Part shown: positions 1,585 through 14,700 of the stretch, piece after piece
Numbering within the stretch: the stretch's first letter is position 1
Layout: every line of letters begins with the position of its first letter
DNA from: Candidatus Peregrinibacteria bacterium
GTDB taxonomy: Bacteria > Patescibacteriota > Gracilibacteria > Peribacterales > Peribacteraceae
DNA length: 43,407 nucleotides
Assembly: GCA_018662075.1 (NCBI GenBank)
Contig: JABJGX010000011.1
Coordinates: forward strand, 1-43,407
Direction: 5' to 3'
Notes under the pieces: model-generated
Told to the model about the DNA's origin: nothing
The model's database searches: none
What the model saw: the letters and a program-made list of their open reading frames with translations, nothing else
Made by a program: the position numbers and the translations under genes

Positions 1585-1905
1585 ATGAATATCCAGCACT
1601 TCGAAAAAGGATTTCACTACAGCGATAAGGAATTGATAAAAATCGCTAAGAAAATAGGAAAATTGGCTACGTACTGCAAAAAGATCAAAGATGACGGTTC
1701 GTTTATCCGCATAGATGCAGAGCACAGGGAAACCGAAAAGAAAGAGGATGCCATGAAAGTAGCGATGACGATAAAGCTTCCAAATAAGGTTCTGCGTGCA
1801 GAATCTCGTAAGACAGACTCTATGGAAGCTGTCGATCGTTGTGTTGCAAAGCTAAAATCACAAGTACTCAAGTATAAAGAGACTCATTCATCGCATAAAC
1901 GTTAG
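1585..1905 (+). CDS. hpf: ribosome hibernation promoting factor / RaiA family (short form)
   Basis: 106-aa basic protein whose layout and C-terminal helix (AVDRCVAKLKSQVLKYKE) resemble the sigma-54 modulation protein / HPF family. Confidence 0.75.
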   Translation: MNIQHFEKGFHYSDKELIKIAKKIGKLATYCKKIKDDGSFIRIDAEHRETEKKEDAMKVAMTIKLPNKVLRAESRKTDSMEAVDRCVAKLKSQVLKYKETHSSHKR

Positions 1906-1923: not shown

Positions 1924-3432
1924 ATGAAACGCTCCATCCCAGCAGCACTTCTCTTTCTTGCAATACCACTTACGGTATTCGCACAAGAGGTTCCAAGTAT
2001 CGAACTCGATACGCCAACCGTCATTATTACAGGACCTGAAGAGGTAGAAGTTGGTCGAACCATTGTTCTTGATGCATCTGCAAGCCGAGGTGTCGGTACA
2101 GACCCCGAGTACAAATGGTTTAAAGGAGAAAGCACATACCCAATTAGCAGATCTGTCGAAGCTGTATTCACTCCAGAGTCCACAGGACTCGTTGACCTCC
2201 GTGTTGAAATTACAACAAAAGTCGATGGAGTAACATCAATATTTGAAGCAGCAAGAACTATCACCGTGTACGAACGAAAAATTGTCCTTCTTGCAGACAG
2301 TTCTATTCCGAAGGAAAAGCTACAGCTCCATCTGCAGTCAGCTGCTGAAGCAGGTGTATTCCTTCGCGTTCTGCAGCCAAAAGAGTCCGCTATTCCACTT
2401 GGAACAGAAGAGTCTATGTTCACGATGATCAACGAAGAAAGTGCAACGCTGAATGGTGCAGAGGCAGTCGTTTTATGGACAGAGGGAATCAAAGGGCTAC
2501 AGGCACTCATGCGTGCAGTAGAGAACAATGGTGAAAAATTTGAGTCCATTCATAATCAAACAATAGTTCTTATCACAGACCGCAGCCTTTCAACACTGGC
2601 ACGTACTGCAGGAGGCCCTTTTACGGTCATTCGGCCCGACCAGATACTGGTAACACGTAAAGAGGCAATTAATCCCCTTATCTCTGCAGAGAGCATTGAA
2701 GCTTTCCAGGAGGCTCTACAGCAAAGAGATATCGACTCTATTATCGTCGATGAAAGCACAACGGGGATTCGCCCATGGAACCTCCTTTCATCTCTGGTAA
2801 ACTACATGCTGACACATGGGGTCTCTAGCCAAACGGTCATCCTGCTATTGATGCTACCGATTATTGCGACCATTCTTGCCTTCTTTAAACAGGTTATCGG
2901 AATTACAACATTTGGACTCTACACCCCGTCTATTGTTGCACTCAGCTTTTTGGCTCTAGGATGGCAAATTGGCCTCCTATTCCTTCTCTTCATCCTGATT
3001 ACAGGATATGCAACCCGTTCACTTATGCGTAAATGGAGACTGTTATACATTCCAAAAGTAGCCATTATCCTGACAGTCGTCAGCCTTACTGTACTCGTTC
3101 TTCTGGGCATTGGCGCATACGTAGGAATCACACTATCAGGTGATACCATCTTCGTACTTCTGATTATGTCCACATTGGCAGAAAGCTTCCTTACGGTGAA
3201 ATCTGAAGAAGGATGGAAAGCTGCATCATTTGGTATCGGAGAAACAGTACTCGCAGCACTTGTCTGTGTGTTCATTGTGCAGTGGTCATTCCTGCAGTCA
3301 CTTATACTTGCCTACCCAGAACTCATCTTACTCACCGTTGGTGTGAACGTCTTCCTTGGTAGATGGACAGGACTCAGGCTCGTTGAGTATTTCCGTTTTA
3401 GGGAAGTCTTTAAACACATTCAAGAAGAATAG
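1924..3432 (+). CDS. secreted PKD/Ig-like plus alpha/beta domain protein with a C-terminal 7TM module of the type that accompanies RimK-like ATP-grasp genes
   Basis: Signal peptide MKRSIPAALLFLAIPLTVFAQE. PKD-like stretch VLDASASRGVGTDPEYKWF. About 7 hydrophobic helices over aa ~290-490, ending GRWTGLRLVEYFRFREVFKHIQEE. The stop lies 2 nt before the ATG of the ATP-grasp gene. Confidence 0.7.
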   Translation: MKRSIPAALLFLAIPLTVFAQEVPSIELDTPTVIITGPEEVEVGRTIVLDASASRGVGTDPEYKWFKGESTYPISRSVEAVFTPESTGLVDLRVEITTKVDGVTSIFEAARTITVYERKIVLLADSSIPKEKLQLHLQSAAEAGVFLRVLQPKESAIPLGTEESMFTMINEESATLNGAEAVVLWTEGIKGLQALMRAVENNGEKFESIHNQTIVLITDRSLSTLARTAGGPFTVIRPDQILVTRKEAINPLISAESIEAFQEALQQRDIDSIIVDESTTGIRPWNLLSSLVNYMLTHGVSSQTVILLLMLPIIATILAFFKQVIGITTFGLYTPSIVALSFLALGWQIGLLFLLFILITGYATRSLMRKWRLLYIPKVAIILTVVSLTVLVLLGIGAYVGITLSGDTIFVLLIMSTLAESFLTVKSEEGWKAASFGIGETVLAALVCVFIVQWSFLQSLILAYPELILLTVGVNVFLGRWTGLRLVEYFRFREVFKHIQEE

Positions 3433-3434
3433 GC

Positions 3435-5810
3435 ATGTTTCCTTTTTTCTCCAATCACGGCGTTTTAGGGTTAAATGCTCGAAGTCTCTTGTACATCAAA
3501 CCCTTCAATCCTAAAAAAGCTACTGCCTTTGCAGACAGCAAGCTGAAGAGTAAAGCGTATCTTGCAGCCCGTGGCATACCTGTTGCAAAACTCTATGGAC
3601 GTATAGATACGCGCGATCAATTGTTGCAGTTCGACTTCTCGCACCTTCCAAACGAATGTGTACTAAAGCCTAATTATGGGTATGGAGGAGAAGGAATTAT
3701 TGTTCTTCGTGGAAGGGATAAACAAGGACGGTTTTTACGCAATGGAAAGGTAGCTATGACAGACCAGGAACTCCGTGAACATATAGAAGATATCTTGGAT
3801 GGTAAATTCTCACTAAAAGGACGATTAGACACTGCATTCTTCGAGCAGATCTTGCACAGTCATCCCTGCTTCGCAAAATTCCGACCAGCAGGACTTCCAG
3901 ACCTAAGAATCATTGTATTTAACCTAGTGCCGGTCATGGCAATGGCACGTATTCCAACGGCCAATAGCGACGGAAAGGCGAACATTCACCTTGGTGGACT
4001 CGGTATCGGAATAGACATTGCAAAGGGGACAACCACCTACGCAGCCCAATACCACGGCATGATAGAAGAGCTACCACACGGAGGCTCTCCTGCGGGTCAT
4101 CAAATCCCCTACTGGGATGAAATCCTCCTCATCTGTTCCCAGATTCAGCAAATTACAAATATTGGATACCTAGCGGTAGACATTGCCCTTGACGAACTTA
4201 TGGGGCCCGTACTCCTAGAGGTAAATGCAAGAGCAGGGCTCATGGTACAGGTCGCAAATCTAGCACCTCTAAGGGCACGACTAAAGCGTGTCACTGGCCT
4301 AAAGGTAGACTCTCCAGAAAAGGGAGTGCGCCTCGGGCAAGACCTCTTTGGAAGCAAAACGAAAAAGTCGAACAGCAGTGATCAAAACGGGAAGCCAACC
4401 CTAGGTGTGCAAGAAAATATCTCTATCACCCTTGGTGATGGATCGACCATAGAGCTCAACGCAAAAATCGCCAGCGACCAAGAGCGCACCGTGTTTAGCA
4501 AAAAACTCATCACTGAACTACAAGAGAAAAAAGGTGCAGAACCAGATAAAGATACCGAAGGATTATATCGTGTGAAGTTCACACTAGAAGGAAAGAAGAT
4601 CCAAACCCTTGTGCAGTCAGAAGACCTCGGAGGAACGGATAGAGCAATTATTGGGTCTCGTGACTTAAGTGGATTCCTTATCGACCCATCCAAGAAAGCG
4701 CTGCCTGTCTCTACGCAAAAAGCCGTGCAGAAAACAGACCTCCGTGCTGTAGACCGCCTCCTTGGTCAAATAGATAAAGATCTACTTCTTCTAAAACACA
4801 TCAAACCTATCAACCTCGATGAAGAAATGGACAGACTAAAAGAGGATGCACTCTACAACCCAACCTTCCTCTACTCCGAAATGGGTAGCAGCCTAGAAGA
4901 TGCGAAGAAGAGAATAAAAGACACCGTTAAGGATGACTCTTCACTGGGAGTACTTCTAGAGAAAAAACGAAAAGAGCTCGTCAATCGCATTACCTTACTC
5001 GAGGCACGAGGAAAGAATGCAGAGTTTACAAAAGCCTCTGAAAAGCTCTTTGGTCGTCCGACAAAAGCACTTATCACTAGCGCAGAAAAAGAGATTGCTG
5101 CGCAGATAGCATGCGATTTAAAGCCACAAGACAAAGACATGATTAATGCTGAAAATGCACAAAAGAAATTCAGAGAAGCTATAGAACAATACTCACTCCA
5201 CGAGTGGAGTGTAGATATAAGGACTAAACTTGTATCTCGTGTAACCGTTGGAGGTAATAAAGTATACATACGTGAAGATGCAATGTTTTCAGAACAAGAC
5301 ATTGCTGCACTTATCGCCCATGAAATAGAGACGCACGTATTAACATCTGAGAATGGTAGCCACCAACCATATGCGATTCTTCGTCGTGGGTGTGCTAATT
5401 ATTTAGATACACAAGAAGGGCTCGCTATTTACAACGAAAGAGGTGTGCTCAGCTCACATGCCGAAAAGAGGTACAACTCTGCGCGGAACATTATTGGACT
5501 CGAATACAGTTTGCATCACAGCCTTGCCCAAACACGAACATTTCTTCAAATAGAACTCGGCTATTCATCAGACAAAGCGCTGCAACAGTGTATTTCTATG
5601 AAACGTGGCCTGGGTGACACATCAGAACCTGGCGGATTTACCAAAAGCATGGCGTACTTCAGGGGCCTCAAAGCCATTGAAGCATTCGTGGAAAAAGGGG
5701 GAGACCTAAAGCGGTTATATATAGGAAAAATTTCTATCGAGGACCTGGAAATAATTGAAAAACTACCAGAGCTAACACCACCTCTTATTCTTCCAGACTT
5801 CCTTCGTTAG
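3435..5810 (+). CDS. fusion protein: RimK-related alpha-L-glutamate-ligase-like ATP-grasp (N-terminal) plus DUF1704/MATCAP-like QEGLA-motif zinc carboxypeptidase (C-terminal)
   Basis: N-terminal ~290 aa carry ATP-grasp motifs (VLKPNYGYGGEGIIV, DLRIIVFNLVPVMAMARIP, GPVLLEVNARAGL). The C-terminal part has HEIETH (5319..5336) and, ~30 aa later, TQEGLAIYNE (QEGLA at 5412..5426), a gluzincin-like spacing. The ~190-aa linker is unassigned. Confidence 0.8.
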   Translation: MFPFFSNHGVLGLNARSLLYIKPFNPKKATAFADSKLKSKAYLAARGIPVAKLYGRIDTRDQLLQFDFSHLPNECVLKPNYGYGGEGIIVLRGRDKQGRFLRNGKVAMTDQELREHIEDILDGKFSLKGRLDTAFFEQILHSHPCFAKFRPAGLPDLRIIVFNLVPVMAMARIPTANSDGKANIHLGGLGIGIDIAKGTTTYAAQYHGMIEELPHGGSPAGHQIPYWDEILLICSQIQQITNIGYLAVDIALDELMGPVLLEVNARAGLMVQVANLAPLRARLKRVTGLKVDSPEKGVRLGQDLFGSKTKKSNSSDQNGKPTLGVQENISITLGDGSTIELNAKIASDQERTVFSKKLITELQEKKGAEPDKDTEGLYRVKFTLEGKKIQTLVQSEDLGGTDRAIIGSRDLSGFLIDPSKKALPVSTQKAVQKTDLRAVDRLLGQIDKDLLLLKHIKPINLDEEMDRLKEDALYNPTFLYSEMGSSLEDAKKRIKDTVKDDSSLGVLLEKKRKELVNRITLLEARGKNAEFTKASEKLFGRPTKALITSAEKEIAAQIACDLKPQDKDMINAENAQKKFREAIEQYSLHEWSVDIRTKLVSRVTVGGNKVYIREDAMFSEQDIAALIAHEIETHVLTSENGSHQPYAILRRGCANYLDTQEGLAIYNERGVLSSHAEKRYNSARNIIGLEYSLHHSLAQTRTFLQIELGYSSDKALQQCISMKRGLGDTSEPGGFTKSMAYFRGLKAIEAFVEKGGDLKRLYIGKISIEDLEIIEKLPELTPPLILPDFLR

Positions 5811-5813
5811 TAC

Positions 5814-5859
5814 CAACCTAACCCTACCCCCTACTCCCTAACCCTAATTCCTACTCCCA
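5814..5859 (-). repeat. G-tract-rich 3'-end element, copy A (second copy at 37091..37133)
   Basis: On the minus strand it reads TGGGAGTAGGAATTAGGGTTAGGGAGTAGGGGGTAGGGTTAGGTTG. It aligns by eye at ~85% with the copy at 37091..37133. Its first 9 nt are Trp-Glu-stop of the DUF3048 gene. Confidence 0.6.
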
Positions 5860-6777
5860 GCTAACGCGTTCTAGTGTTGGAAGTACCGTCATCCATACTT
5901 GCCCCTCGGCAAATGGAATGTCTTGCCCTGCTGCATCTGTAATGCGGAATGGCTCTTTAAAACTTGAACGACTCCAGCGCGCATCCCACATCTTTCCACT
6001 GTGAAACACCTGCGCCTTACCACCACCATTCAGCGTCATGAATAACCTACCGTAAGCGCCAATCTCATCTATTGGAACTTCCATAATAACCACCGTACTA
6101 GGCCTTGCTGCGCTAATTGTCTCACCATTTGTTCTCTCGTATTTCTGTGACAGAGGCTGGAAATCAAAAGATACATTGTGCAGTACATTGAAAAAATTCA
6201 CGCGTATAGACTCTGCAGTCTCCCCTGCCTCAGGCATTCCTTTTTTAAAAGGAGGCCACAACACCGGACGCAAAAGACTTTCTGGAACCTCTGCAAGGAA
6301 AGATTTAATCAAGTCCTTATTCAGAAACAAATCATGAGGAGCAGCTGGTCCAACTTTACGCAGGGAGCCATGCTCATCATCGAAGTAGAGTAAGTTACGT
6401 GCAAAGAAATTTTTCCCATTGGTCACTCTTTCTAGAGCTTCAGGACTTCCCCCAGCATGGAATACCGTTCGAGACCACGGAGCAATACTATCAAGGAAAT
6501 ACGGACGTAAAGAACGCACTGGTCCAATCTCTCTTGGAATAGCTCGTGCATCAAATGTTGCTACAAAGCGGGAGATAAACCCTTCAACCAAGAACTCCTG
6601 CACCATCACTGCATCCTCTATTCCTGCATGATAAGGCCTCGCATCCTCATGATTTTCAATAACAACCGAGAAGAATGTTTGCTCGGTATTAAAATACCCA
6701 TTCACATATGCAAAAAGAACCGCTGCGCTTAATACTGTAAGTACGATAATAACAAATGGCAGAAACCGAGAAATCAT
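5851..6777 (-). CDS. DUF3048 (YerB-like) family protein with an N-terminal membrane anchor
   Basis: N-terminal TM segment FLPFVIIVLTVLSAAVLFAYV, and the motif VVIENHEDARPYHAGIEDAVMVQEFLVEGFISRFVATF, which is typical of DUF3048. Confidence 0.7.
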   Translation of the reverse strand: MISRFLPFVIIVLTVLSAAVLFAYVNGYFNTEQTFFSVVIENHEDARPYHAGIEDAVMVQEFLVEGFISRFVATFDARAIPREIGPVRSLRPYFLDSIAPWSRTVFHAGGSPEALERVTNGKNFFARNLLYFDDEHGSLRKVGPAAPHDLFLNKDLIKSFLAEVPESLLRPVLWPPFKKGMPEAGETAESIRVNFFNVLHNVSFDFQPLSQKYERTNGETISAARPSTVVIMEVPIDEIGAYGRLFMTLNGGGKAQVFHSGKMWDARWSRSSFKEPFRITDAAGQDIPFAEGQVWMTVLPTLERVSWE

Positions 6778-6788
6778 AGGAAGTGTGT

Positions 6789-7451
6789 TTATTCAGATTT
6801 TGCTTCTTCACCTTCTTTTTTGTCGCCTTCTTCACCTTCTTTCTTTTCTCCTTCTTCATCTTCAGTAGCAGCTGCTTCTTCCTGAACTTCTTCTACAGCA
6901 GCACGTGGCTCCTGAACAGTGGCGATCATCGTGTCGGGCTCGTCCATAATCTGTACACCATCCATAGGGAGAATGTCTGATGCATGAAGTGCATCTCCGA
7001 ACTCCTTAAGACTTGAAAGACTAATATGAAGTGCGTGTGGAAGGTTTGCTGGCAAGCAATGCACAGTAACGTGATCGTTTGTCGTGATAAGTACTCCGTT
7101 AAGAGTCTTTACCGCTTCAGACTCGTCGATGAATTCGAGTGGGATCTGTGCTTCGATCTCCTTCTTCATGTTCACAGCGTAGAAATCAACATGAATAATT
7201 CTGTCACTAACAGGATCAAATGAGAGATCATGGAAGAGAGAAGGAACCTTCTTACCGTCAATATCAAGGTCTACAATTGTACTTCCTCCAGCCTGAACGT
7301 ATGCCTTATAGATCTCGCTATAATCACACTGAATAGACGTATTCTCTGCCTCGTTGCCATAAACAACACCAGGAACGATGCTCTCCCTGCGAAGAACTTT
7401 TGCAGGTGTGTCTGCCAAGCGGGCCTTTGCTTTGAGTGAAATCATTTCCAT
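6789..7451 (-). CDS. rplY: 50S ribosomal protein L25 / general stress protein Ctc, with an acidic E/K/G-rich C-terminal tail
   Basis: LRRESIVPGVVYGNEAENTSIQ...HDLSFDPVSDRIIHVDFYAV matches the L25/Ctc N- and C-domains. Confidence 0.85.
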   Translation of the reverse strand: MEMISLKAKARLADTPAKVLRRESIVPGVVYGNEAENTSIQCDYSEIYKAYVQAGGSTIVDLDIDGKKVPSLFHDLSFDPVSDRIIHVDFYAVNMKKEIEAQIPLEFIDESEAVKTLNGVLITTNDHVTVHCLPANLPHALHISLSSLKEFGDALHASDILPMDGVQIMDEPDTMIATVQEPRAAVEEVQEEAAATEDEEGEKKEGEEGDKKEGEEAKSE

Positions 7452-7509: not shown

Positions 7510-8310
7510 CTACGAATGTTTCCCTTTCCACTTCCAAAAGTACTTAAATGCGCTAGAAACGTGAATTCTTCCAGTTTTTTTAAATAATAGGTCCCAAAAA
7601 CTCTCTCCACTAAGTCGATTTTTTCTATCTGAAGCACTTACAGAAGGGAGGTATATCACTTTTTTCCCAACTTCATGACACCGACGACAAAGATCTGTAT
7701 CTTCAAAGAAGAGGAAAAACCGCTCATCAAACCCGCCAAGCTTCTGAAAAAGATCCCGTCGCATCATGAAGCAACCACCAATAGCCCAGTCTACCTCCTG
7801 CTCTTCATCCAAATTCGTATCCTTCATCAAATACCCATCTAAATACGATGGGAACATGTTCCCAAAAAAGCTTCGTCGAGACACGATATCGGATATGTGT
7901 GGGTAGCGACGAATAGAAAGGCGCTGTGTACCATCATTATGAATAAGACGTGGGGCAACAATGCCAGCATCATCATTCTTCTGAAGGTACGCAACCATCT
8001 TCTCTATCCCCTGTGGCTCTAAGACCTTATCAGGGTTATTCACCACTACAAACTCCCCTACGGCATACGTTATGCCTGCGTTATACCCAGACCCAAACCC
8101 TTCATTGGAAGGAGTCTCTATAAACCGAACATTATGAAACTTCCGTAACTGCGTACGCAAAATTCCAATAGAGTCATCATCTGAATGATTATCAATAACT
8201 AAAATCTCTATTTGAGAGACCAGAGTTTGCTCCTGCAATGCCTTCACACAACGCACTGTGGCATTTGCGTTACGGAAGTTTAGAATAAGAACAGAAACGA
8301 GAGGTTGCAT
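7510..8310 (-). CDS. family 2 glycosyltransferase
   Basis: N-terminal VSVLILNFRN...EILVIDNHSDDDS and a later DxD-like FFEDTDL; typical GT-A/GT2 layout. Confidence 0.85.
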   Translation of the reverse strand: MQPLVSVLILNFRNANATVRCVKALQEQTLVSQIEILVIDNHSDDDSIGILRTQLRKFHNVRFIETPSNEGFGSGYNAGITYAVGEFVVVNNPDKVLEPQGIEKMVAYLQKNDDAGIVAPRLIHNDGTQRLSIRRYPHISDIVSRRSFFGNMFPSYLDGYLMKDTNLDEEQEVDWAIGGCFMMRRDLFQKLGGFDERFFLFFEDTDLCRRCHEVGKKVIYLPSVSASDRKNRLSGESFWDLLFKKTGRIHVSSAFKYFWKWKGKHS

Positions 8311-8349: not shown

Positions 8350-10602
8350 ATGAGTCAGGAATTAGATGAATTGCGCAAGCGGGTACTATCAGCTCCTATG
8401 GAGCCTGGGGTTTATCGATGGCTCAATGCAAAAGGAGACATTATCTACGTTGGTAAAGCAAAAAATCTAAAAAACAGAATGCTATCATATGTACAATCGG
8501 GCTTGTCCGCCGAAGCCTCGGCGAAGGCGGGACCCTGGAAACTATCACTCATAAAAAACATTGCAGACTTCGATGTCACCATCACAACATCAGAGCTCGA
8601 GGCACTGATCCTCGAGACGAATCTGATTAAAGAAATCCAACCAAAATATAATGTGTTGATGAAAGATGGCAAGAGCTACGTCTATGTTCGCATCTCGACC
8701 AAAGACCAGTACCCAAGTATTTCGATTGTCCGAAAAATGGAAGACGATAAAGCTGCTTACTTTGGTCCGTACTTAACAGCATACAATATCAAGAGAACAC
8801 TCGACATGCTGCACGATGTTTTTCGGTACCGTGCATGCGAGGGGTCTGTTCTTGCGCTGAACAAAGAAAAGAAAGTAGGTCGTGCATGTCTGGAATACCA
8901 AATCGGAAAATGTAACGGACTCTGCGTCGGTGATGTAACCAAAAAACAATACCGCGAAGGCATAGAAGAAGTCATGCGATTCCTAAAAGGAGACTACGCA
9001 ACAACGGTACTGTCTCTAAAAGATATGATGGAAGTAGCAGCAACCGAAAAGAAGTTTGAGCGCGCAGGAAAGCTTCGTGACACCCTGAAATACATTGCCA
9101 CTCTTAATGAACAACAAACCGTATCAGACACATCCCGAGAAGACACAGATGCAATTGGAATGGCAGTACAAAACGGTAAAGTGCAAGTAGTAGTCTTACA
9201 CGAACGCAATGGAAGAGTCGTAGACGAGCGAAGCTTCGCTGTCTCTGGAGAATCGGACTCGGTAAGTGATGCCCTCTCGCAGCTGATCCCCCAGCTCTAT
9301 AGTTCTGCACCAGAAATCCCAGACTTAGTCGTGATTCCAGAGGAGCCAGAAGACATCGCCGTGCTGGAAGAGTGGCTCACACAAATGCGCGGGAAAAAGG
9401 TAGAGCTCAGAGCTGCCGAGCGCGGTAAGAAATCGAAACTCTTGGCCCTTGCACAAAGTAATGCCACGCAAAAGATATCCCAGCAGTTTGCAAAGTGGGA
9501 AGCTGCTTCAAAAAACATTGCAGACGCATTAGAAGACCTTAAAGACACACTAAAACTTCCAGGTATTCCGAGTCGCATCGAAGGCTACGACATTTCACAC
9601 CTCGGTGGAACAGAAACTGTCGGGTCTATGGTCGTCATCAAGAACGGAAAACCTGCAAACCCTGAATATCGGTCATTCACAATAAGAACAATGCAGAGCG
9701 GTGAAATAGATGATTACAAAGCACTAAAAGAAGTACTTAGGCGTAGGCTGCACTATCTAGTAGAAGAAAATACAGAGATCGTAATAACAAAACTGAAAAA
9801 GAAAGAGCGAGAAGAGTGGTCCGCAGATAAAAAGAAGAGGCTAGAGGTCCCTAAAGATTGGAAAGAAGAAGTACTCGTTGTACGCGAAAACGAAACAGAG
9901 CTTCTGACACTTGACCTTAGAAAATCTGCAAAAGACAAAATAATCTACGGGACAATAGATATACAGACAAAAGATGATGCACTATTACACAGCGCACTCG
10001 ATACGCTAGAAAAAGAAATTGGAAAGCGCGAGTGGTATCTCTGCTGTCAGACTGATGTTGATACCGATATGTTTGCACTACACGGGCTCATGGATTCAGT
10101 GAAAAAAATGCCTGACCATTTCAAGTCTAACTGCGCACATATGTTCCATCGTCGGAAGACAATTAGTGATGCATCGTTAAATTCTACACCAGACCTTTTG
10201 GTTATAGATGGCGGAAAAGGACAGCTGAGCAGTGTAAAAGAAGTACTCGACGAACTGAAAATGACGATCCCTGTTATCGGCCTCGCAAAACGAGAGGAGG
10301 AAGTATTTTTACCAGGACAGTCTTTACCGGAAGACCTTCCAAAGAATTCCCAAGCTAGTTTTTTGCTGCAAAGACTCCGGAACGAAGCACACAGGTTTGC
10401 AAACTCTCACAGAGAAAAACGTATCGCAAAAGGACTGATAGGTTCTGCACTCGACTCGGTCCCAGGTATTGGTGACATTACGAAAAAAGAATTGCTTCAA
10501 AAGTTCGGCTCTGTAGCAGGGATTATCGCAGCTCCAGATGCAGAGATACTAAAAATAGTGAATACTCAAAAGCTCGAAGATCTACGAAAGCACCTTACGT
10601 AG
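8350..10602 (+). CDS. uvrC: excinuclease ABC subunit C, with a ~144-aa lineage-specific insert
   Basis: GIY-YIG N-domain (GVYRWLNAKGDIIYVGKAKNLKNR), Cys-rich region, UVR motif (FERAGKLRDTL), endonuclease domain (IEGYDISHLGG, LLVIDGGKGQL, GLAKREEE) and C-terminal HhH. It is 750 aa, versus the ~600 aa I recall for typical UvrC. Confidence 0.9.
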   Translation: MSQELDELRKRVLSAPMEPGVYRWLNAKGDIIYVGKAKNLKNRMLSYVQSGLSAEASAKAGPWKLSLIKNIADFDVTITTSELEALILETNLIKEIQPKYNVLMKDGKSYVYVRISTKDQYPSISIVRKMEDDKAAYFGPYLTAYNIKRTLDMLHDVFRYRACEGSVLALNKEKKVGRACLEYQIGKCNGLCVGDVTKKQYREGIEEVMRFLKGDYATTVLSLKDMMEVAATEKKFERAGKLRDTLKYIATLNEQQTVSDTSREDTDAIGMAVQNGKVQVVVLHERNGRVVDERSFAVSGESDSVSDALSQLIPQLYSSAPEIPDLVVIPEEPEDIAVLEEWLTQMRGKKVELRAAERGKKSKLLALAQSNATQKISQQFAKWEAASKNIADALEDLKDTLKLPGIPSRIEGYDISHLGGTETVGSMVVIKNGKPANPEYRSFTIRTMQSGEIDDYKALKEVLRRRLHYLVEENTEIVITKLKKKEREEWSADKKKRLEVPKDWKEEVLVVRENETELLTLDLRKSAKDKIIYGTIDIQTKDDALLHSALDTLEKEIGKREWYLCCQTDVDTDMFALHGLMDSVKKMPDHFKSNCAHMFHRRKTISDASLNSTPDLLVIDGGKGQLSSVKEVLDELKMTIPVIGLAKREEEVFLPGQSLPEDLPKNSQASFLLQRLRNEAHRFANSHREKRIAKGLIGSALDSVPGIGDITKKELLQKFGSVAGIIAAPDAEILKIVNTQKLEDLRKHLT

Positions 10603-11432: not shown

Positions 11433-11774
11433 ATGCAAAAACAAAAACTCATTGAGGAGCTAACACTTCTAACAGGGCGATCTGCGATACTTACACCACA
11501 TCATAAAAAGGCAATTCTTAAAGCTTTGCCGACAATGAAACAAGAAAAGATACTAGAGCTTCAAGAAATTCTTGGAGAAGAAAGATCTGTGATTGCAGTA
11601 TTTGCAGAACAGACTATTTCACAAGCAATACAGCACGGTGATACAAAAATATTCAAAAAAATGGATTCATTGCTTGTAAAAACGAATAAGAAATTACTAA
11701 AGACGGATGAAGTTACAAGCACATCCATAGAACAAGGACAGCTAGAACACTTCTTTGATGACATAACTACATGA
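11433..11774 (+). CDS. hypothetical protein (113 aa), translationally coupled to the giant gene
   Basis: ORF track. The stop TGA overlaps the next ATG (ATGA) and is followed in frame by TAA. No recognisable family. Confidence 0.5.
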   Translation: MQKQKLIEELTLLTGRSAILTPHHKKAILKALPTMKQEKILELQEILGEERSVIAVFAEQTISQAIQHGDTKIFKKMDSLLVKTNKKLLKTDEVTSTSIEQGQLEHFFDDITT

Positions 11775-14700
11775 TAAATCAAAGTCCAGATCGGCAATCC
11801 TATAACAAGCGCATCCAAGAAACGCAAAATGATATCGATAAAACGGATTCAAAACTCGATAGCAGAATTGATATAGATGGTATGGACCCAGAAGAGCAAG
11901 AAGCTCTGAAAGAGGCGTACATAGATAAGGTAAATTTGATGCAGGGAAAAGTACATCGATCATTTGAGAATATTGATATCCAACGAAACCTTCGCTCTCC
12001 TCAGTGGAGAAAATGGGAGAAAGAAATCATCACAGTTGAAGCGAACCTTTTAATGATTCTTAGAAAAGAGAGTTCTAGACTAAATCGTTCAAATAAAGAA
12101 GCTAATGCAACATCAGGCCTCGATGATTTTAATAAAAAAATAGATTCATTTCTTCATGAAATTGATGCAATTGATGAAGTGCATAACACGCCTGCTCCAG
12201 CGGAAAAACTTAATGAAAAAGAGCCAGAGAAGCTCCGCTCTGCAGATGCCATATTCCATGAATGGAATGTCCCAGGGACAGACGAGGAGATCACAGAGAA
12301 GGCGCAGAAAGCAAACGAACGATACGGAGAAGAAACCTTACGCAATCTCGATGCAACTCTCTCATTGTATGATGCTCTAGATCCAGAATTAAGAAAGAAG
12401 CTCTTTAAACAAAGTACTACTGTAAGGCTTCCACAAGTAGCTGGGCAATTAGCAAATGGAACATTTGAGTCCTCCCCTCTTGGGTTCCTTCTTACAGAAG
12501 ATATTGAAACCATTGAAGGTCAACTATTGATAGAACGAGAAGAAATAATAGATGTCATCGGAAGAAAGACCTCAGAAGTACAATCTCTTAAAGAGGCAAC
12601 CACCGAGACTATTACAAGACTATGTAAAGTGGCTGGTATAGACGTAGGAAAAGAGAACGTTCTCAGCGATATCTATTCATGGATGGCCAATACCAATGGT
12701 AAACCTGAACTACAAAAAAAGATTGTGGGAGAAATTAGAGATATGGCTAAAAAAGTTACAGAACTGCAAAAAGAGTCACAGGATTTGTATCCTCAAGTGA
12801 CTACGATAGAACGTGCATTTAATGTATTTGACACAAATAACGCTCGTAATGTGGGCAATGCAAAAGAGGAAGCACAGTTACGCTACCGAGGAGCGCTGGA
12901 ATATGGCATCCCATTCCCAGGTGATGCTGAATTACAAAAACTACTTCGACCAACACAAATGAATCTATTAAAAGGAGAGCCCGAAAAGGCTTTGCACGTA
13001 TCTATAGATGAGCTCAATACATTCATGGAACAAAATCCAAACCTAGATACTCTTCATCGTGTTGATGTTCTATCTTTACATAGTGTACGAAAACGCAAAG
13101 TTACTAAAGCTACATTCCAGACGTTCACAGTGGCTAGTAATCCTCTTGATGCCTTTAGGCGTTCCAAAAATGCAGCGTTCGATATAGGAGGAAGCCTAGA
13201 TACCAAACAAAAAACATATACGGTACTAACAGAACTGGGGACAATAGCGAATGGGGATGAGATTATTGCTATAAAGCTTCCACCTTACAATGGAAGACCA
13301 AGCGAAAAGGTAATCGCCATACGTAATACAAATGGCATTGTTCAGCTGCAGGATGGAACTGTTATTGAAAAGCCAGATAAATTGCAGCCTATGATTATTA
13401 ACTCTATGAATGGCGATGGAGAAACAACCTACGTCTCTAAGGAGACATCAAAATACTTACAAGAAAATGTAAATATTGGGAGTAAAAACAGGGTGATACT
13501 CAGAAATCGTGATGCCATAAATTCTAAAGAGTCTTTTACTGGAGGAACATCGATAAGGATGCTCGATACATCGCAGCTGCAACTTGCATCACGTGATGGA
13601 AAAGGGATGCTAATTATCAAAGGTGCAGATGGCAAACAAGAAGAGTCAATCAACGAAGAGTTCCTACTAAAAGGAAGTGCAGAGCATGGAGGCGATGTCC
13701 TACAAAGCATCGATAAAAACCCAATTGTTCAAGGTATCACAAAGCGAGCAGGTGGACTCCAAGAGAACATGCAGAATATGCAAACAATGTTAGAAACTGC
13801 AATGGACAGCAAGGCAACAACCCAAGGAGCTTTTGTAGATCAGATGCGAAGTTATGCTAGACCGATGCTGGCAACCATGGAAGACCCTGCAACTCGTCAA
13901 AATATCGTACAAGCAAAAAACCTTCTCCAGTCAGAGCTCAGTCGTGTGAAGCTAGGAAGCTATGTTGGAAGTGGAATAGAAAGTGAGATACAAGATCGTA
14001 TCGATGCACTAGACGGCTACATTACGGTGCTCAATGATAACCAGCTAAAGAATGCACTGCAAAATGCAATGGAGCTAAAACCCGAAGAATGGGCTGAATG
14101 GTTGAGCACTGATGGCCTCATCATGCTTGGTGCTATTGCCCTAGCGATAGTGGCCATTGTTGCATTAACAGTGCTTACAGGAGGAGCAGGACTTATTGCT
14201 ATCTCTGCAGTAGGTGCAGCAGGTGGACTAATTGGCGGAGAGCTAACAAAAGAAGGGCTGCACCATGCTTATAATACTTGGGGTGGAGCTGCTTCGGGTG
14301 AATATCGATATAATGATAGATCACGATTCGGTGCGTACCTTGAAGGACAAAAACTATACGACCCAAAGACAAAAGAGTTTGTAGATATGAGCTTTCTAGA
14401 AAACGTAGCTGCGCCATATGCACGAGACTTTGCAGTTAGCTTTGCAACAACAGCCCTTGCGCTTGGTGCAGGGCAGGCTGTCGGGAATAGTCTGAGTAAA
14501 CTAGCGCAGAATTCTAAATGGATACAGGCTCTCTCAAAGAATAACAAAGTTGCAAATAGCATTATGAAAAAGTTATCTGGCCTTGCAGATGATGCAGCAA
14601 CAATTCCAAAGAACATGAAGGAATTTGCTGGAAAATCCCTAAAAGAAATTGCTGATGAGCTCGGGGATGAACTCGTACTAGAAAAGAGTGCAGAAGGTGT

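What the first reader, a model, noticed from the sequence alone, without database searches (positions are those of the whole stretch)
3435..5810. One polypeptide fuses a RimK/TTL-type ATP-grasp ligase to a DUF1704/MATCAP-type carboxypeptidase
Residues ~1-290 carry the motifs of the RimK-related alpha-L-glutamate-ligase-like ATP-grasp family.

Residues ~480-791 carry HEIETH (5319..5336) and, about 30 residues later, the QEGLA motif (5412..5426). This combination defines the DUF1704 family ('QEGLA motif protein'). To my knowledge the eukaryotic tubulin detyrosinase MATCAP belongs to this family.

Established knowledge supports both halves. ATP-grasp enzymes (RimK, TTL, TTLLs) add amino acids to protein C-termini. 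MATCAP-type gluzincins remove C-terminal residues.

Finding both activities in one chain, translationally coupled to a 7TM protein that ends in -QEE, suggests a self-contained reversible C-terminal tailing module attached to a membrane sensor. It would be a bacterial analogue of the tubulin tyrosination/glutamylation cycle. The ~190-aa linker (aa ~290-480) is unassigned. I cannot tell from here whether this exact fusion is already catalogued.
Basis: partly seen in the sequence, partly recalled or inferred. Interest (0 to 1): 0.78.

Follow-up and report, generated by a model that had tools for sequence, protein, structure and literature searches.

The report
Fused tail-adding and tail-trimming enzyme
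One 791-residue protein of a Peregrinibacteria (candidate phyla radiation) genome joins an ATP-dependent amino-acid ligase, a catalytically dead retroviral-type protease domain and a MATCAP-type zinc carboxypeptidase, and is paired with a seven-helix membrane protein whose cytoplasmic tail always ends in Glu-Glu; it is a compact, unstudied variant of the bacterial RimK/RimB and RloABC systems and of the same enzyme pairing that edits tubulin tails in eukaryotes.

Summary
ORF 3435..5810 encodes 791 aa with ATPgrasp_ST (E 1e-56) and MATCAP/DUF1704 (E 3e-51). Catalytic residues of both halves are conserved in at least 311 of 313 full-length relatives.

The fusion is not an assembly error. It recurs in at least 80 species-level Peribacteria genomes and in dozens of 50%-identity clusters down to about 28% identity, including UGA=Gly lineages. 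Databases already list the two-domain architecture, but I found no paper on it.

New here: the "unassigned linker" is a third domain. Residues 320-424 have a retropepsin (RimB/RloA-like) fold (hhalign 99%; Foldseek hits Ddi1, HIV protease, RloA). The catalytic Asp-Thr-Gly is replaced by Ala-Ser-Asp, so it is probably a pseudo-protease.

A 7TM_transglut gene followed by an ATPgrasp_ST gene is a near-universal pair. The partner's cytoplasmic tail ends in Glu in 77 of 77 Peribacteria species. Family-wide, -EE tails occur in 7/10 partners of MATCAP-bearing enzymes against 1/34 others.

Most likely this is a ligase-plus-peptidase module that extends and trims a C-terminal, probably glutamate-rich, tail. 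The acceptor is unproven. It is a new variant of a known kind, of moderate interest.

The parts
1924..3432 (+). Partner gene: 502-aa membrane protein with signal peptide, 279-aa ectodomain, seven TM helices and a 28-aa cytoplasmic tail
   Evidence: ORF. PF14402 7TM_transglut at aa 299-495, E 2e-27. Hydropathy and positive-inside topology. A homologue lies immediately upstream of the fusion in every Peribacteria locus with enough DNA.
1987..2817 (+). Ectodomain of the partner (aa 22-298); no inactive-transglutaminase signature; first module probably PKD/Ig-like
   Evidence: No significant Pfam match. The equivalent region of the distant partner in L087 is a clear PKD domain, E 5e-20. It evolves faster than the 7TM part: median identity 46% against 73%.
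2818..3408 (+). 7TM_transglut domain of the partner
   Evidence: PF14402 at aa 299-495. NF052267 RloB matches only this part.
3421..3429 (+). Codons for the C-terminal Gln-Glu-Glu of the partner
   Evidence: Tail ...YFRFREVFKHIQEE. The last two residues are EE in 72 and QE in 5 of 77 species-level loci, while L25 and HPF-like tails in the same loci vary.
3430..3437 (+). Gene junction: TAG stop, 2-nt spacer, ATG start
   Evidence: Sequence read. Spacings of -4 to +6 nt are common in related loci.
3435..5810 (+). Three-domain fusion ORF, 791 aa
3456..4352 (+). ATP-grasp amidoligase domain (aa 8-306), ATPgrasp_ST family
   Evidence: PF14397 E 1e-56. K78, D132, E137, R158, R172, N183, D249, E262 and N264 each conserved in at least 311/313. 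Model pLDDT mostly 85-95. Foldseek best matches are ArgX/LysX and RimK.
4218..4226 (+). Glu262-Val-Asn264, the E-x-N metal-binding motif typical of ATP-grasp enzymes
   Evidence: E262 and N264 are each conserved in 312/313. The role is assigned from general knowledge of ATP-grasp enzymes.
4353..4388 (+). Disordered Lys/Ser-rich hinge 1 (aa 307-318)
   Evidence: pLDDT below 50. Variable and gapped in the alignments. The naturally split version in L096 breaks here.
4392..4706 (+). Retropepsin-fold (RimB/RloA-like) domain, aa 320-424, predicted catalytically inactive
   Evidence: hhalign against canonical KxDTGA domains: probability 99.0, E 6e-18. Foldseek of the domain model hits only retropepsins: Ddi1, RloA 9g58, HIV protease. 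PF05618 is detected in the same position in relatives.
4464..4481 (+). KIASDQ: degenerate remnant of the K-I-D-T-G-A catalytic motif (Ala346 replaces the catalytic Asp)
   Evidence: hhalign register. Canonical K[IV]D[TS]GA sits at the same position in relatives. Census at this position: D 155, A 68, S 42, N 27 of 313.
4650..4667 (+). IGSRDL: retained Gly-Arg-Asp hallmark motif of retropepsins
   Evidence: G407 in 291/313, R409 in 257/313, D410 in 267/313. It aligns with IIGRRDL of the canonical domains.
4707..4733 (+). Disordered hinge 2 (aa 425-433)
   Evidence: pLDDT below 50.
4734..5807 (+). MATCAP/DUF1704-type gluzincin carboxypeptidase domain (aa 434-791)
   Evidence: PF08014 E 3e-51. TIGR02421 at aa 443-790. 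Sequence hit to human MATCAP 7z5g. Foldseek 7z5g E 5e-11, TM 0.63-0.65.
5319..5336 (+). HEIETH: HExxxH metal-binding and catalytic motif
   Evidence: It aligns with HEIGTH of MATCAP; the microtubule-bound structure 7z6s carries HQIGTH at this position. H629 in 312, E630 in 311 and H634 in 312 of 313. The HExxxH motif and the E281A dead mutant are described in PMC10499314.
5412..5426 (+). QEGLA motif; Glu661 is the presumed third metal ligand
   Evidence: E661 in 312/313. It aligns with EEGLA of MATCAP.

Best explanation
The gene encodes a cytoplasmic three-domain enzyme that works together with the 7TM membrane protein encoded immediately upstream.

- Domain 1 (aa 8-306) is an active ATP-grasp amidoligase of the ATPgrasp_ST / TIGR02291-like group. 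It is predicted to add amino acids, most likely glutamate, to a C-terminal carboxylate of a protein or peptide.
- Domain 3 (aa 434-791) is an active MATCAP-type HExxxH metallocarboxypeptidase. It is predicted to remove residues from the same kind of C-terminus, so that the length of the added tail is set by the balance of ligation and trimming.
- Domain 2 (aa 320-424) descends from a RimB/RloA-type retropepsin that has lost its catalytic aspartate in this lineage. It probably survives as a dimerisation and/or acidic-peptide-binding module linking the two catalytic domains.

The whole is a compacted relative of the RimK/RimB and RloABC ligase-plus-peptidase systems. By analogy with those systems, it probably tunes a stress or envelope-related response.

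Shown here: domain identities, intact active sites, loss of the retropepsin catalytic motif, the gene pairing, and the cytoplasmic -EE tail.

Inferred: the amino acid added, the acceptor, the antagonistic relationship of the two activities, and the physiological role.
For: Domain identities and scores. Active-site conservation in 313 full-length relatives: ATP-grasp residues at least 311/313, HExxxH plus Glu at least 311/313. Three confidently folded modules with disordered hinges, pLDDT 88.

The C-terminal module matches human MATCAP by sequence and by fold. MATCAP/TMCP enzymes remove C-terminal Tyr and Glu and shorten polyglutamate chains (PMC10499314). The ATP-grasp module's nearest structures are ArgX/LysX and RimK, including the RimK-RpsF complex, all of which ligate onto protein C-terminal Glu.

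The middle domain has a retropepsin fold: hhalign 99%, E 6e-18; Foldseek hits Ddi1, RloA and HIV protease; PF05618/RimB-like is recognised at the same place in relatives. Its DTG is replaced by ASD while GRD is kept. RimB removes Glu from polyglutamylated RpsF and stimulates RimK, and natural RimB-RimK hybrids exist (PMC11957791). RloA cleaves runs of 8 or more Glu, and deleting rloB or rloC suppresses the rloA1-3 mutant phenotype (PMC12239564).

The gene pair 7TM_transglut then ATPgrasp_ST is found in about 80 of 87 unbiased family members and in every Peribacteria locus with enough DNA. A QEGLA gene and the gene at the neighbouring locus tag, annotated as glutathione synthase (an ATP-grasp family), are induced 27- to 38-fold by low salinity in Photobacterium (PMC10308900).
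Against: No biochemical data exist for any member of the fused family. The acceptor and the amino acid are unknown. Pfam named the ligase family 'sugar-transfer associated', which suggests its curators expected a role in cell-surface polymer synthesis rather than protein tailing. Stand-alone DUF1704 genes in Cellulophaga and on an archaeal-looking contig have no ligase or 7TM neighbour. One fused gene (L092) has no 7TM gene within 6 kb. The inter-domain arrangement is not determined (pTM 0.54), so nothing shows that the two active sites share a substrate. The two activities could act in sequence rather than in opposition.
Confidence: 0.5

Rival explanations
1. Polymer or peptide synthesis for export. 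The ATP-grasp domain makes a free peptide or polymer (for example poly-alpha-glutamate, as RimK does in vitro) or decorates a cell-surface polymer. The 7TM protein exports or anchors the product. The peptidase domain limits chain length or recycles the product.
For: [quoted passage not shown] In Pseudomonas the protease RloA is periplasmic while RloC is cytoplasmic, and loss of RloB or RloC rescues the protease-less mutant; that fits a product crossing the membrane through or with RloB. The Pfam family name is 'sugar-transfer associated ATP-grasp'. Cyanophycin synthetase is among the structural neighbours. Most 7TM partners family-wide are bare 7TM proteins of about 220-240 aa without ectodomains, which looks more like a transporter than a sensor.
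Against: In the window protein both peptidase-type domains are cytoplasmic and fused to the ligase. That fits worse with processing an exported product. There are no glycosyltransferase or polymer-export genes in the operon; the GT2 gene at 7510-8310 is on the other strand, beyond L25. This rival does not explain the invariant -EE tail.
Confidence: 0.22
2. Sequential maturation rather than a reversible cycle. The MATCAP domain first removes C-terminal residue(s) from a precursor to expose an acceptor carboxylate, and the ligase then adds a residue or residues. The enzyme would be a one-way processing machine.
For: Fusing two enzymes often reflects consecutive steps on one substrate. TMCP/MATCAP enzymes generate defined truncated tails, delta-1, delta-2 and delta-3. 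The expanded cluster in L087 adds three further ATP-grasp genes and a second MATCAP gene, which suggests multi-step tail building.
Against: The characterised relatives (RimK/RimB, TTL or TTLL with MATCAP or CCP) are antagonistic pairs. The partner's genome-encoded tail already ends in -EE with no extra residue to remove.
Confidence: 0.12
3. Ribosome-directed modification as in RimK. The acceptor is a ribosomal or ribosome-associated protein, for example S6, the acidic-tailed L25, or the HPF-like protein encoded next door. The 7TM protein only regulates the enzyme.
For: RimK is among the closest structural neighbours. An S30AE/HPF-like gene precedes the 7TM gene in 57 of 86 loci, and L25 with a long acidic tail lies 1 kb downstream.
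Against: HPF and L25 C-termini are variable across the same loci, unlike the 7TM tail. The HPF and L25 neighbours are absent from distant systems (L087, L089, L095, L096), whereas the 7TM gene is retained. That pattern looks like lineage synteny rather than functional linkage.
Confidence: 0.06
4. The fusion is an assembly or frameshift artefact joining separate genes.
For: A split arrangement does exist in one metagenome contig: L096 has a 317-aa ATP-grasp ORF followed by a 468-aa ORF.
Against: The identical 791-aa protein was read on 24 contigs from independent assemblies. Hundreds of full-length homologues exist in independent samples, with a conserved middle domain.
Confidence: 0.01

Closest known systems
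RimK / RimB, and the RimBK hybrid (Pseudomonas, Desulfotalea)
   Same: It pairs an ATP-grasp ligase with a retropepsin-like domain, both cytoplasmic. The ligase adds residues to a protein C-terminus ending in Glu, and a peptidase removes them. Fusion of the two domain types has a precedent (PMC11957791). RimK is among the nearest structures.
   Different: The ligase is ATPgrasp_ST, not RimK family (TIGR00768 scores 37.5 bits against a cut-off of 143.4). The domain order is reversed: ligase first here, RimB first in RimBK. The retropepsin domain has lost its catalytic Asp. A third domain (MATCAP) supplies the peptidase activity. The partner is a 7TM protein, and there is no evidence for RpsF as target.
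RloABC operon of Pseudomonas aeruginosa (mBio 2025)
   Same: It has a 7TM_transglut membrane protein next to a cytoplasmic ATP-grasp (RloC-like) and a retropepsin-type module. The genetics there show that ligase and membrane protein act upstream of the protease. The RloA structure 9g58 is among the fold matches of the middle domain.
   Different: RloA is a separate, secreted, active protease, whereas here the homologous domain is internal, cytoplasmic and inactive. RloB has an inactive-transglutaminase ectodomain, whereas the window partner does not (NF052267 matched only over the 7TM part, 62 bits against a cut-off of 900). Rlo has no MATCAP domain. According to that paper, 96% of RloB hits are from Proteobacteria.
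Eukaryotic tubulin-tail enzymes: MATCAP/TMCP1-2 with TTL/TTLL ligases
   Same: The peptidase family is the same: PF08014, HExxxH plus Glu, fold match to 7z5g. An ATP-grasp ligase is opposed by a carboxypeptidase acting on acidic C-terminal tails ending ...EE(Y). TMCPs also shorten polyglutamate chains.
   Different: In eukaryotes ligase and peptidase are separate proteins. The ligase here is not a TTL-family member (no PF03133 match). The substrate is not tubulin. About 21% identity to MATCAP in the Foldseek structural alignment.
TIGR02291 'alpha-L-glutamate ligase-like' and TIGR02421 'flavohemoglobin expression-modulating QEGLA motif' proteins
   Same: These are the nearest named families for the two halves. 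JGI already names the fusion by concatenating both names. A QEGLA gene and the gene at the neighbouring locus tag, annotated as glutathione synthase (an ATP-grasp family), are co-induced by low salinity in Photobacterium.
   Different: Both matches fall below the equivalog cut-offs (233 against 314; 195 against 339). Those families are separate proteins. Stand-alone QEGLA genes in Cellulophaga and on an archaeal-looking contig lack ligase or 7TM neighbours.
LysX/ArgX acting on the LysW carrier protein
   Same: These are the best structural matches of the ATP-grasp half (3vpb, 3vpd, 5k2m). They ligate an amino acid to the C-terminal Glu of a protein.
   Different: They belong to amino-acid biosynthesis operons. 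There is no LysW-like carrier, no peptidase and no membrane partner here. Sequence similarity is only about 14-17%.

Membership tests
Pfam ATPgrasp_ST (PF14397) | Full-length match above the gathering score | tested here: met
   192.6 bits against 31.4, profile positions 2-277 of 278.
ATP-grasp superfamily (active enzyme) | Conserved Lys in the Gly-rich KPxxGxGGxG loop, and acidic/Asn metal ligands (D...E-x-N) | tested here: met
   K78 312/313, G82/G85/G87 conserved, E137 313/313, D249, E262 and N264 each 312/313. The Gly-rich loop aligns with biotin carboxylases. The functional roles are assigned from general knowledge.
RimK family (TIGR00768) | Whole-protein score above the curated cut-off | tested here: not met
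   37.5 bits against 143.4; only aa 19-99 matched. Related to the family, not a member.
TIGR02291 rimK_rel_E_lig (hypothetical equivalog) | Score above the curated cut-off | tested here: not met
   233.1 bits against 314.2, although nearly the whole profile is covered, 9-315 of 317.
Tubulin-tyrosine ligase family (PF03133) | Any significant match | tested here: not met
   No hit for the window protein at E 0.01. Two relatives give only weak hits: E 0.004 (P0188) and E 0.09 (L096 ORF).
MATCAP / DUF1704 (PF08014) | Match above the gathering score | tested here: met
   174.9 bits against 27.
MATCAP / DUF1704 (PF08014) | HExxxH motif plus a downstream Glu (gluzincin metal site) | tested here: met
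   H629-E630-x3-H634 and E661 align with HEIGTH and EEGLA of human MATCAP. Each is conserved in at least 311/313. The motif definition is from PMC10499314.
MATCAP / DUF1704 (PF08014) | Fold similarity to the solved MATCAP structure | tested here: met
   Foldseek 7z5g: E 5e-11, probability 1.00, target TM 0.63-0.65.
MATCAP / DUF1704 (PF08014) | Carboxypeptidase activity on acidic C-terminal tails | not testable with these tools
   Requires enzymology.
TIGR02421 QEGLA (hypothetical equivalog) | Score above the curated cut-off | tested here: not met
   195.3 bits against 338.65.
RimB/RloA retropepsin-like (PF05618) | Direct Pfam match | tested here: not met
   No Pfam hit for the window middle region even at E 10. 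Relatives do match: P0176 38.1 bits, P0172 34.7 bits, cut-off 27.
RimB/RloA retropepsin-like (PF05618) | Homology by profile-profile comparison, and retropepsin fold | tested here: met
   hhalign probability 99.0, E 6e-18. The Foldseek top 50 are all aspartic-protease folds, mostly retropepsins, including RloA 9g58. The domain-only model is moderate (pLDDT 74.6, core 80-90); in the full model this region scores about 75-91.
RimB/RloA retropepsin-like (PF05618) | Catalytic Asp-Thr/Ser-Gly motif | tested here: not met
   Ala346-Ser347-Asp348 occupy those positions. Asp is kept in only 155 of 313 fused relatives. The Gly-Arg-Asp motif is retained.
RloB (NF052267) | Full-length match including the inactive-transglutaminase ectodomain | tested here: not met
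   62 bits against a cut-off of 900; only profile positions 310-507 matched. No transglutaminase family hit in the ectodomain. A structural test of the ectodomain could not be run.
Pfam 7TM_transglut (PF14402), partner protein | Match above the gathering score | tested here: met
   96.7 bits against 25.
RloABC-type operon | Separate secreted retropepsin gene in the operon | tested here: not met
   No PF05618-bearing gene among the called neighbours in L001-L006. The only retropepsin-like sequence is internal to the cytoplasmic fusion.
Known anti-phage defence systems (PADLOC) | Any match | tested here: not met
   No families for either protein.

The most novel reading that the evidence does not exclude
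The acceptor is the 7TM partner itself. Its cytoplasmic C-terminal ...QEE tail is extended (polyglutamylated or capped) by the ATP-grasp domain and trimmed back to -EE by the MATCAP domain. The dead retropepsin domain holds the acidic tail. Tail length would then report or set the state of a membrane receptor or transporter. That would be a prokaryotic 'tail code' on a membrane protein and a direct antecedent of the tubulin tyrosination/glutamylation cycle.
Probability: 0.18. Interest if true: 0.8.

Novelty: new variant of a known kind. Interest (0 to 1): 0.52.

Why it matters
1. It shows that the MATCAP peptidase family, characterised so far only on tubulin tails in the papers read here (PMC10499314; only one held paper mentions the bacterial QEGLA family), is physically fused in many bacteria to an ATP-grasp ligase. 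The ligase-and-trimmer logic of the tubulin code therefore has a prokaryotic counterpart.

2. It links three bacterial systems (RimK/RimB, RloABC and the QEGLA proteins) into one family of modules. The modules share a core of 7TM protein plus ATPgrasp_ST ligase and swap their peptidase component.

3. The physiological substrate of the Rlo-type systems is unknown. The invariant cytoplasmic -EE tail, and its co-occurrence with MATCAP-bearing enzymes, offers a concrete, testable candidate.

4. The system is found in at least 80 species-level genomes of the Peribacteria/Peregrinibacteria, bacteria with very small genomes. That suggests a function they cannot dispense with.

Tried and rejected
- A Pfam scan of the linker alone, even at E 10, found nothing. 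Homology emerged only through relatives, profile-profile comparison and structure.
- A sequence search of the PDB with the ATP-grasp half gave only marginal biotin-carboxylase hits. The structural search was needed.
- Iyer et al. 2009 (the source of these Pfam families) could not be read under either identifier. What that paper says about this gene neighbourhood is therefore not verified here.
- A genome scan with a very divergent alignment failed for lack of conserved stretches. The retry returned only the 80 most similar loci, all from the Peribacteria lineage, so taxonomy of distant fused forms rests on source names and on the UGA=Gly signature.
- The promoter and terminator scan was uninformative, at or near what shuffled sequence gives.
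- HPF and L25 were rejected as likely acceptors because their C-termini vary and they are lost from distant systems.
- Assembly artefact was rejected.
- Membership of a known defence system was rejected.
- Searches for 'DUF1704', 'QEGLA' and 'TIGR02421' found no paper describing the fusion.


Full report
**1. The observation**

The window contains an ATG-initiated ORF at 3435..5810 (+) of 791 aa, exactly as reported. Pfam assigns aa 16-287 to ATPgrasp_ST (PF14397, E 1.1e-56) and aa 471-779 to MATCAP/DUF1704 (PF08014, E 3.2e-51). Both are far above their curated cut-offs. NCBIfam gives TIGR02291 (alpha-L-glutamate ligase-like, aa 7-307) and TIGR02421 (QEGLA motif protein, aa 443-790), both below the equivalog cut-offs. 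HEIETH lies at 5319-5336 and QEGLA at 5412-5426. The upstream ORF 1924..3432 is a 502-aa 7TM_transglut protein ending KHIQEE. Its TAG stop is 2 nt from the ATG of the fusion.

**2. Real and recurrent**

The identical protein was read on 24 contigs from independent assemblies. A word-indexed search returned at least 120 full-length homologues at 57-100% identity, all carrying both Pfam domains. They are labelled Candidatus Peregrinibacteria, Peribacteraceae or Patescibacteria, and are already named 'alpha-L-glutamate ligase-like protein/uncharacterized protein (TIGR02421 family)' by JGI or 'tyrosine/phenylalanine carboxypeptidase domain-containing protein' by NCBI.

An exhaustive search of 50%-identity representatives found 3457 relatives (592 at E<=1e-30). 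They include dozens of full-length fused representatives down to about 28% identity. A scan of species-representative genomes confirmed 491 relatives. The best 80 are all full-length fusions in Peribacteria/Peregrinibacteria-labelled MAGs. A distant fused clade (P0145, 38% identity) is labelled Patescibacteria or 'uncultured bacterium', plus one Nitrospirota-labelled MAG.

Twenty-two fused proteins have Trp at invariant Gly columns and 2-6% Trp overall. In L092 the gene has 27 in-frame TGA codons, and 16 of the 23 alignable ones fall on Gly columns of the window protein. These are therefore UGA=Gly lineages translated with the wrong code, and the family reaches them too.

**3. The 'linker' is a third domain**

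In an alignment of 20 fused proteins, the region between the two known domains is conserved. Pfam sees nothing in it. In more distant relatives, however, the same position is recognised as PF05618 (Zn_protease, renamed RimB-like), above the cut-off. Many relatives carry a canonical K[IV]D[TS]GA motif exactly where the window has KIASDQ.

A profile of the window family's linker (35 sequences) aligns with 21 canonical domains taken from two-domain proteins at hhalign probability 99.0, E 6e-18. This places Ala346-Ser347-Asp348 on the Asp-Thr-Gly triad. An AlphaFold model of the linker (core pLDDT 80-90) matches only aspartic-protease folds in the PDB: Ddi1 RVP domains, HIV-1 protease and Pseudomonas fluorescens RloA 9g58.

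The full-length model (pLDDT 88.1) shows three folded modules: aa 8-306, 320-424 and 434-791. They are separated by disordered hinges at aa 307-318 and 425-433.

**4. Which sites are alive**

In 313 full-length relatives, the ATP-grasp residues K78, D132, E137, R158, R172, N183, D249, E262 and N264 are conserved in at least 311. The metallopeptidase residues H629, E630, H634 and E661 are also conserved in at least 311.

The retropepsin catalytic position is Asp in only 155 (Ala 68, Ser 42, Asn 27), while the Gly-Arg-Asp hallmark is largely kept. The window's clade therefore has two active enzymes flanking a pseudo-protease. A minority of fused relatives (P0145, P0159, P0164, P0176) may have three active sites.

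**5. Structural neighbours**

The C-terminal module matches human MATCAP (7z5g, E 5e-11, TM 0.63-0.65). The ATP-grasp module is closest to ArgX/LysX, which ligate onto the C-terminal Glu of LysW, and to RimK, including the RimK-RpsF complex. PsnB and cyanophycin synthetase follow.

MATCAP/TMCP enzymes are HExxxH gluzincins. They remove C-terminal Tyr, then Glu, and shorten polyglutamate chains (PMC10499314).

**6. The partner and its tail**

In 80 species-level Peribacteria loci, plus six loci from metagenome and MAG contigs that encode the window protein or close homologues, a homologous 7TM gene lies immediately upstream on the same strand wherever there is enough DNA, often with -4 to +6 nt spacing. 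Its last 14 residues are almost invariant: (E)YFRFREVF[KR]HLQEE. The last two residues are EE in 72 and QE in 5 of 77 loci. The C-termini of the neighbouring L25 and HPF-like proteins vary freely. Hydropathy and the positive-inside rule place the 28-aa tail in the cytoplasm, on the same side as the enzyme.

The ectodomain has no transglutaminase signature. It evolves faster than the 7TM part (46% against 73% median identity) and corresponds in a distant partner to a PKD domain.

Outside the lineage the picture is mixed. Tails read ...KKHRA (L087)...NVDAD (L089)...PPNH (L090)...KTEE (L095) and ...NNQE (L096). One fused gene has no 7TM neighbour.

An unbiased metagenome scan used the conserved G[RK]WTGLR[LVI]xE motif. 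It gave 119 loci, of which 87 were confirmed as 7TM_transglut homologues. An ATPgrasp_ST homologue lies directly downstream in about 80 of them, and most of the misses lack enough downstream DNA. Among 44 unique-tail loci that could be classified, -EE tails occur in 7/10 partners of MATCAP-bearing enzymes against 1/34 others (Fisher p 2e-5, not corrected for phylogeny). The one exception, L111, has no enzyme gene anywhere on its 10.5-kb stretch. Partners of plain ATP-grasp genes are short 7TM-only proteins with basic tails.

**7. Known relatives**

RimK adds Glu to the C-terminus of RpsF. RimB, a retropepsin-like endopeptidase, removes these residues and stimulates RimK. A natural RimB-RimK hybrid is proteolytically active (PMC11957791).

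In P. aeruginosa, secreted RloA retropepsins cleave runs of 8 or more Glu. Loss of RloB (inactive transglutaminase plus 7TM) or RloC (ATP-grasp) suppresses the hypo-osmotic lethality of the protease-less mutant (PMC12239564).

In Photobacterium damselae, low salinity induces a QEGLA-motif gene (27-fold), the gene at the neighbouring locus tag annotated 'GshB' (38-fold) and RimK (52-fold) (PMC10308900).

The window system shares parts with all of these and is identical to none. Its domain order is reversed relative to RimBK. Its retropepsin domain is internal and dead. It has an added MATCAP domain, and its partner has a different ectodomain.

**8. Mechanism**

The best-supported reading is a cytoplasmic ligase-plus-carboxypeptidase that sets the length of a C-terminal, probably glutamate-rich, tail. 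It works with the 7TM protein, and the dead retropepsin domain acts as a dimerisation or acidic-peptide-binding scaffold.

Domain identities, intact sites, pairing and topology are shown. The residue added, the acceptor, the antagonism of the two activities and the physiology are inferred.

The rivals are synthesis of an exported peptide polymer, one-way sequential maturation, and a ribosomal acceptor. The first is the strongest, because in the Rlo system the protease acts in the periplasm and most 7TM partners look like bare membrane channels.

**9. Novelty and score**

The two-domain architecture is already present in public annotation. The gene neighbourhood belongs to a known class of ligase-peptidase modules. 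This is therefore not categorically new.

What appears new is the recognition of the third, degenerate retropepsin domain, the breadth of the fusion across candidate phyla radiation bacteria, the near-universal pairing of 7TM_transglut with ATPgrasp_ST, and the association of an invariant cytoplasmic -EE tail with MATCAP-bearing enzymes.

I found no paper describing the fusion, but I could not read Iyer et al. 2009. I rate it a new variant of a known kind, with interest about 0.5.

Noticed in passing
L092:6001-8463 (protein P0233) and 21 other fused proteins: The database proteins carry Trp at invariant Gly columns and 2-6% Trp overall. The L092 gene has 27 in-frame TGA codons, and 16 of 23 alignable ones fall on Gly columns. 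These are UGA=Gly (code 25) organisms whose genes were translated with UGA=Trp in the public collection.
   Followed up: yes
L087:5906-10678: Downstream of a fused gene that keeps a canonical KIDTGA motif lie three further ATP-grasp genes and a second, 575-aa MATCAP-domain gene. This expanded cluster suggests multi-step building and trimming of a peptide tail.
   Followed up: no
window 1585-1905 (+): A short (106 aa) S30AE/HPF-like ribosome hibernation factor gene sits 18 nt upstream of the 7TM gene. It is syntenic in 57 of 86 related loci but absent from distant systems.
   Followed up: partly
window 6789-7451 (-): Ribosomal protein L25/Ctc carries a long low-complexity acidic C-terminal extension (...EDEEGEKKEGEEGDKKEGEEAKSE). 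Such extensions are present but variable in sequence and end residue across Peribacteria.
   Followed up: partly
window 11771-16282 (+): A 1503-aa ORF with no called Pfam family in the equivalent loci. It contains a hydrophobic Gly/Ala-rich segment, a proline-rich stretch (PPPPPPM) and an HExxH-like motif (FAHETTHAARN) near the C-terminus, so it could be a large membrane-associated metalloprotease-like protein.
   Followed up: no
L004:11111-13477 and L005 (UvrC homologue of window 8350-10602): In related Peregrinibacteria the UvrC gene product (788-826 aa) also hits GNAT acetyltransferase families between UvrC domains. The window UvrC is itself long (750 aa) and may hold an insertion.
   Followed up: no
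L006/L014 (JAIPIN010000005.1) and L009 (CAVOCY010000027.1): Contigs labelled Kiritimatiellales and Gracilibacteria show the same gene order as Peribacteria (S30AE, 7TM, fusion, DUF3048, L25, GT2, UvrC) at 63-75% identity. The bins or labels are probably wrong.
   Followed up: no
P0145 (NCBI record from AMFJ01 contigs): A three-domain fused protein is named 'ketopantoate hydroxymethyltransferase' in its NCBI record, an evident misannotation.
   Followed up: no
P0188 and P0209: Other architectures are built on the same ATPgrasp_ST plus RimB-like core: one with a C-terminal YdjC-like domain (688 aa) and one with a second ATP-grasp domain (926 aa). The third position of the fusion seems to be interchangeable.
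   Followed up: no
L111:7715-7786: A 529-aa 7TM_transglut protein with a ...KHMEE tail has no ATP-grasp or MATCAP gene anywhere on its 10.5-kb stretch under either genetic code. It is the only -EE tail found without the enzyme nearby.
   Followed up: partly
window 5851-6777 (-): A DUF3048 protein (N- and C-terminal domains) converges on the fusion gene with a 40-nt gap. It is syntenic in the Peribacteria loci examined (L001-L006), and its function is unknown.
   Followed up: no
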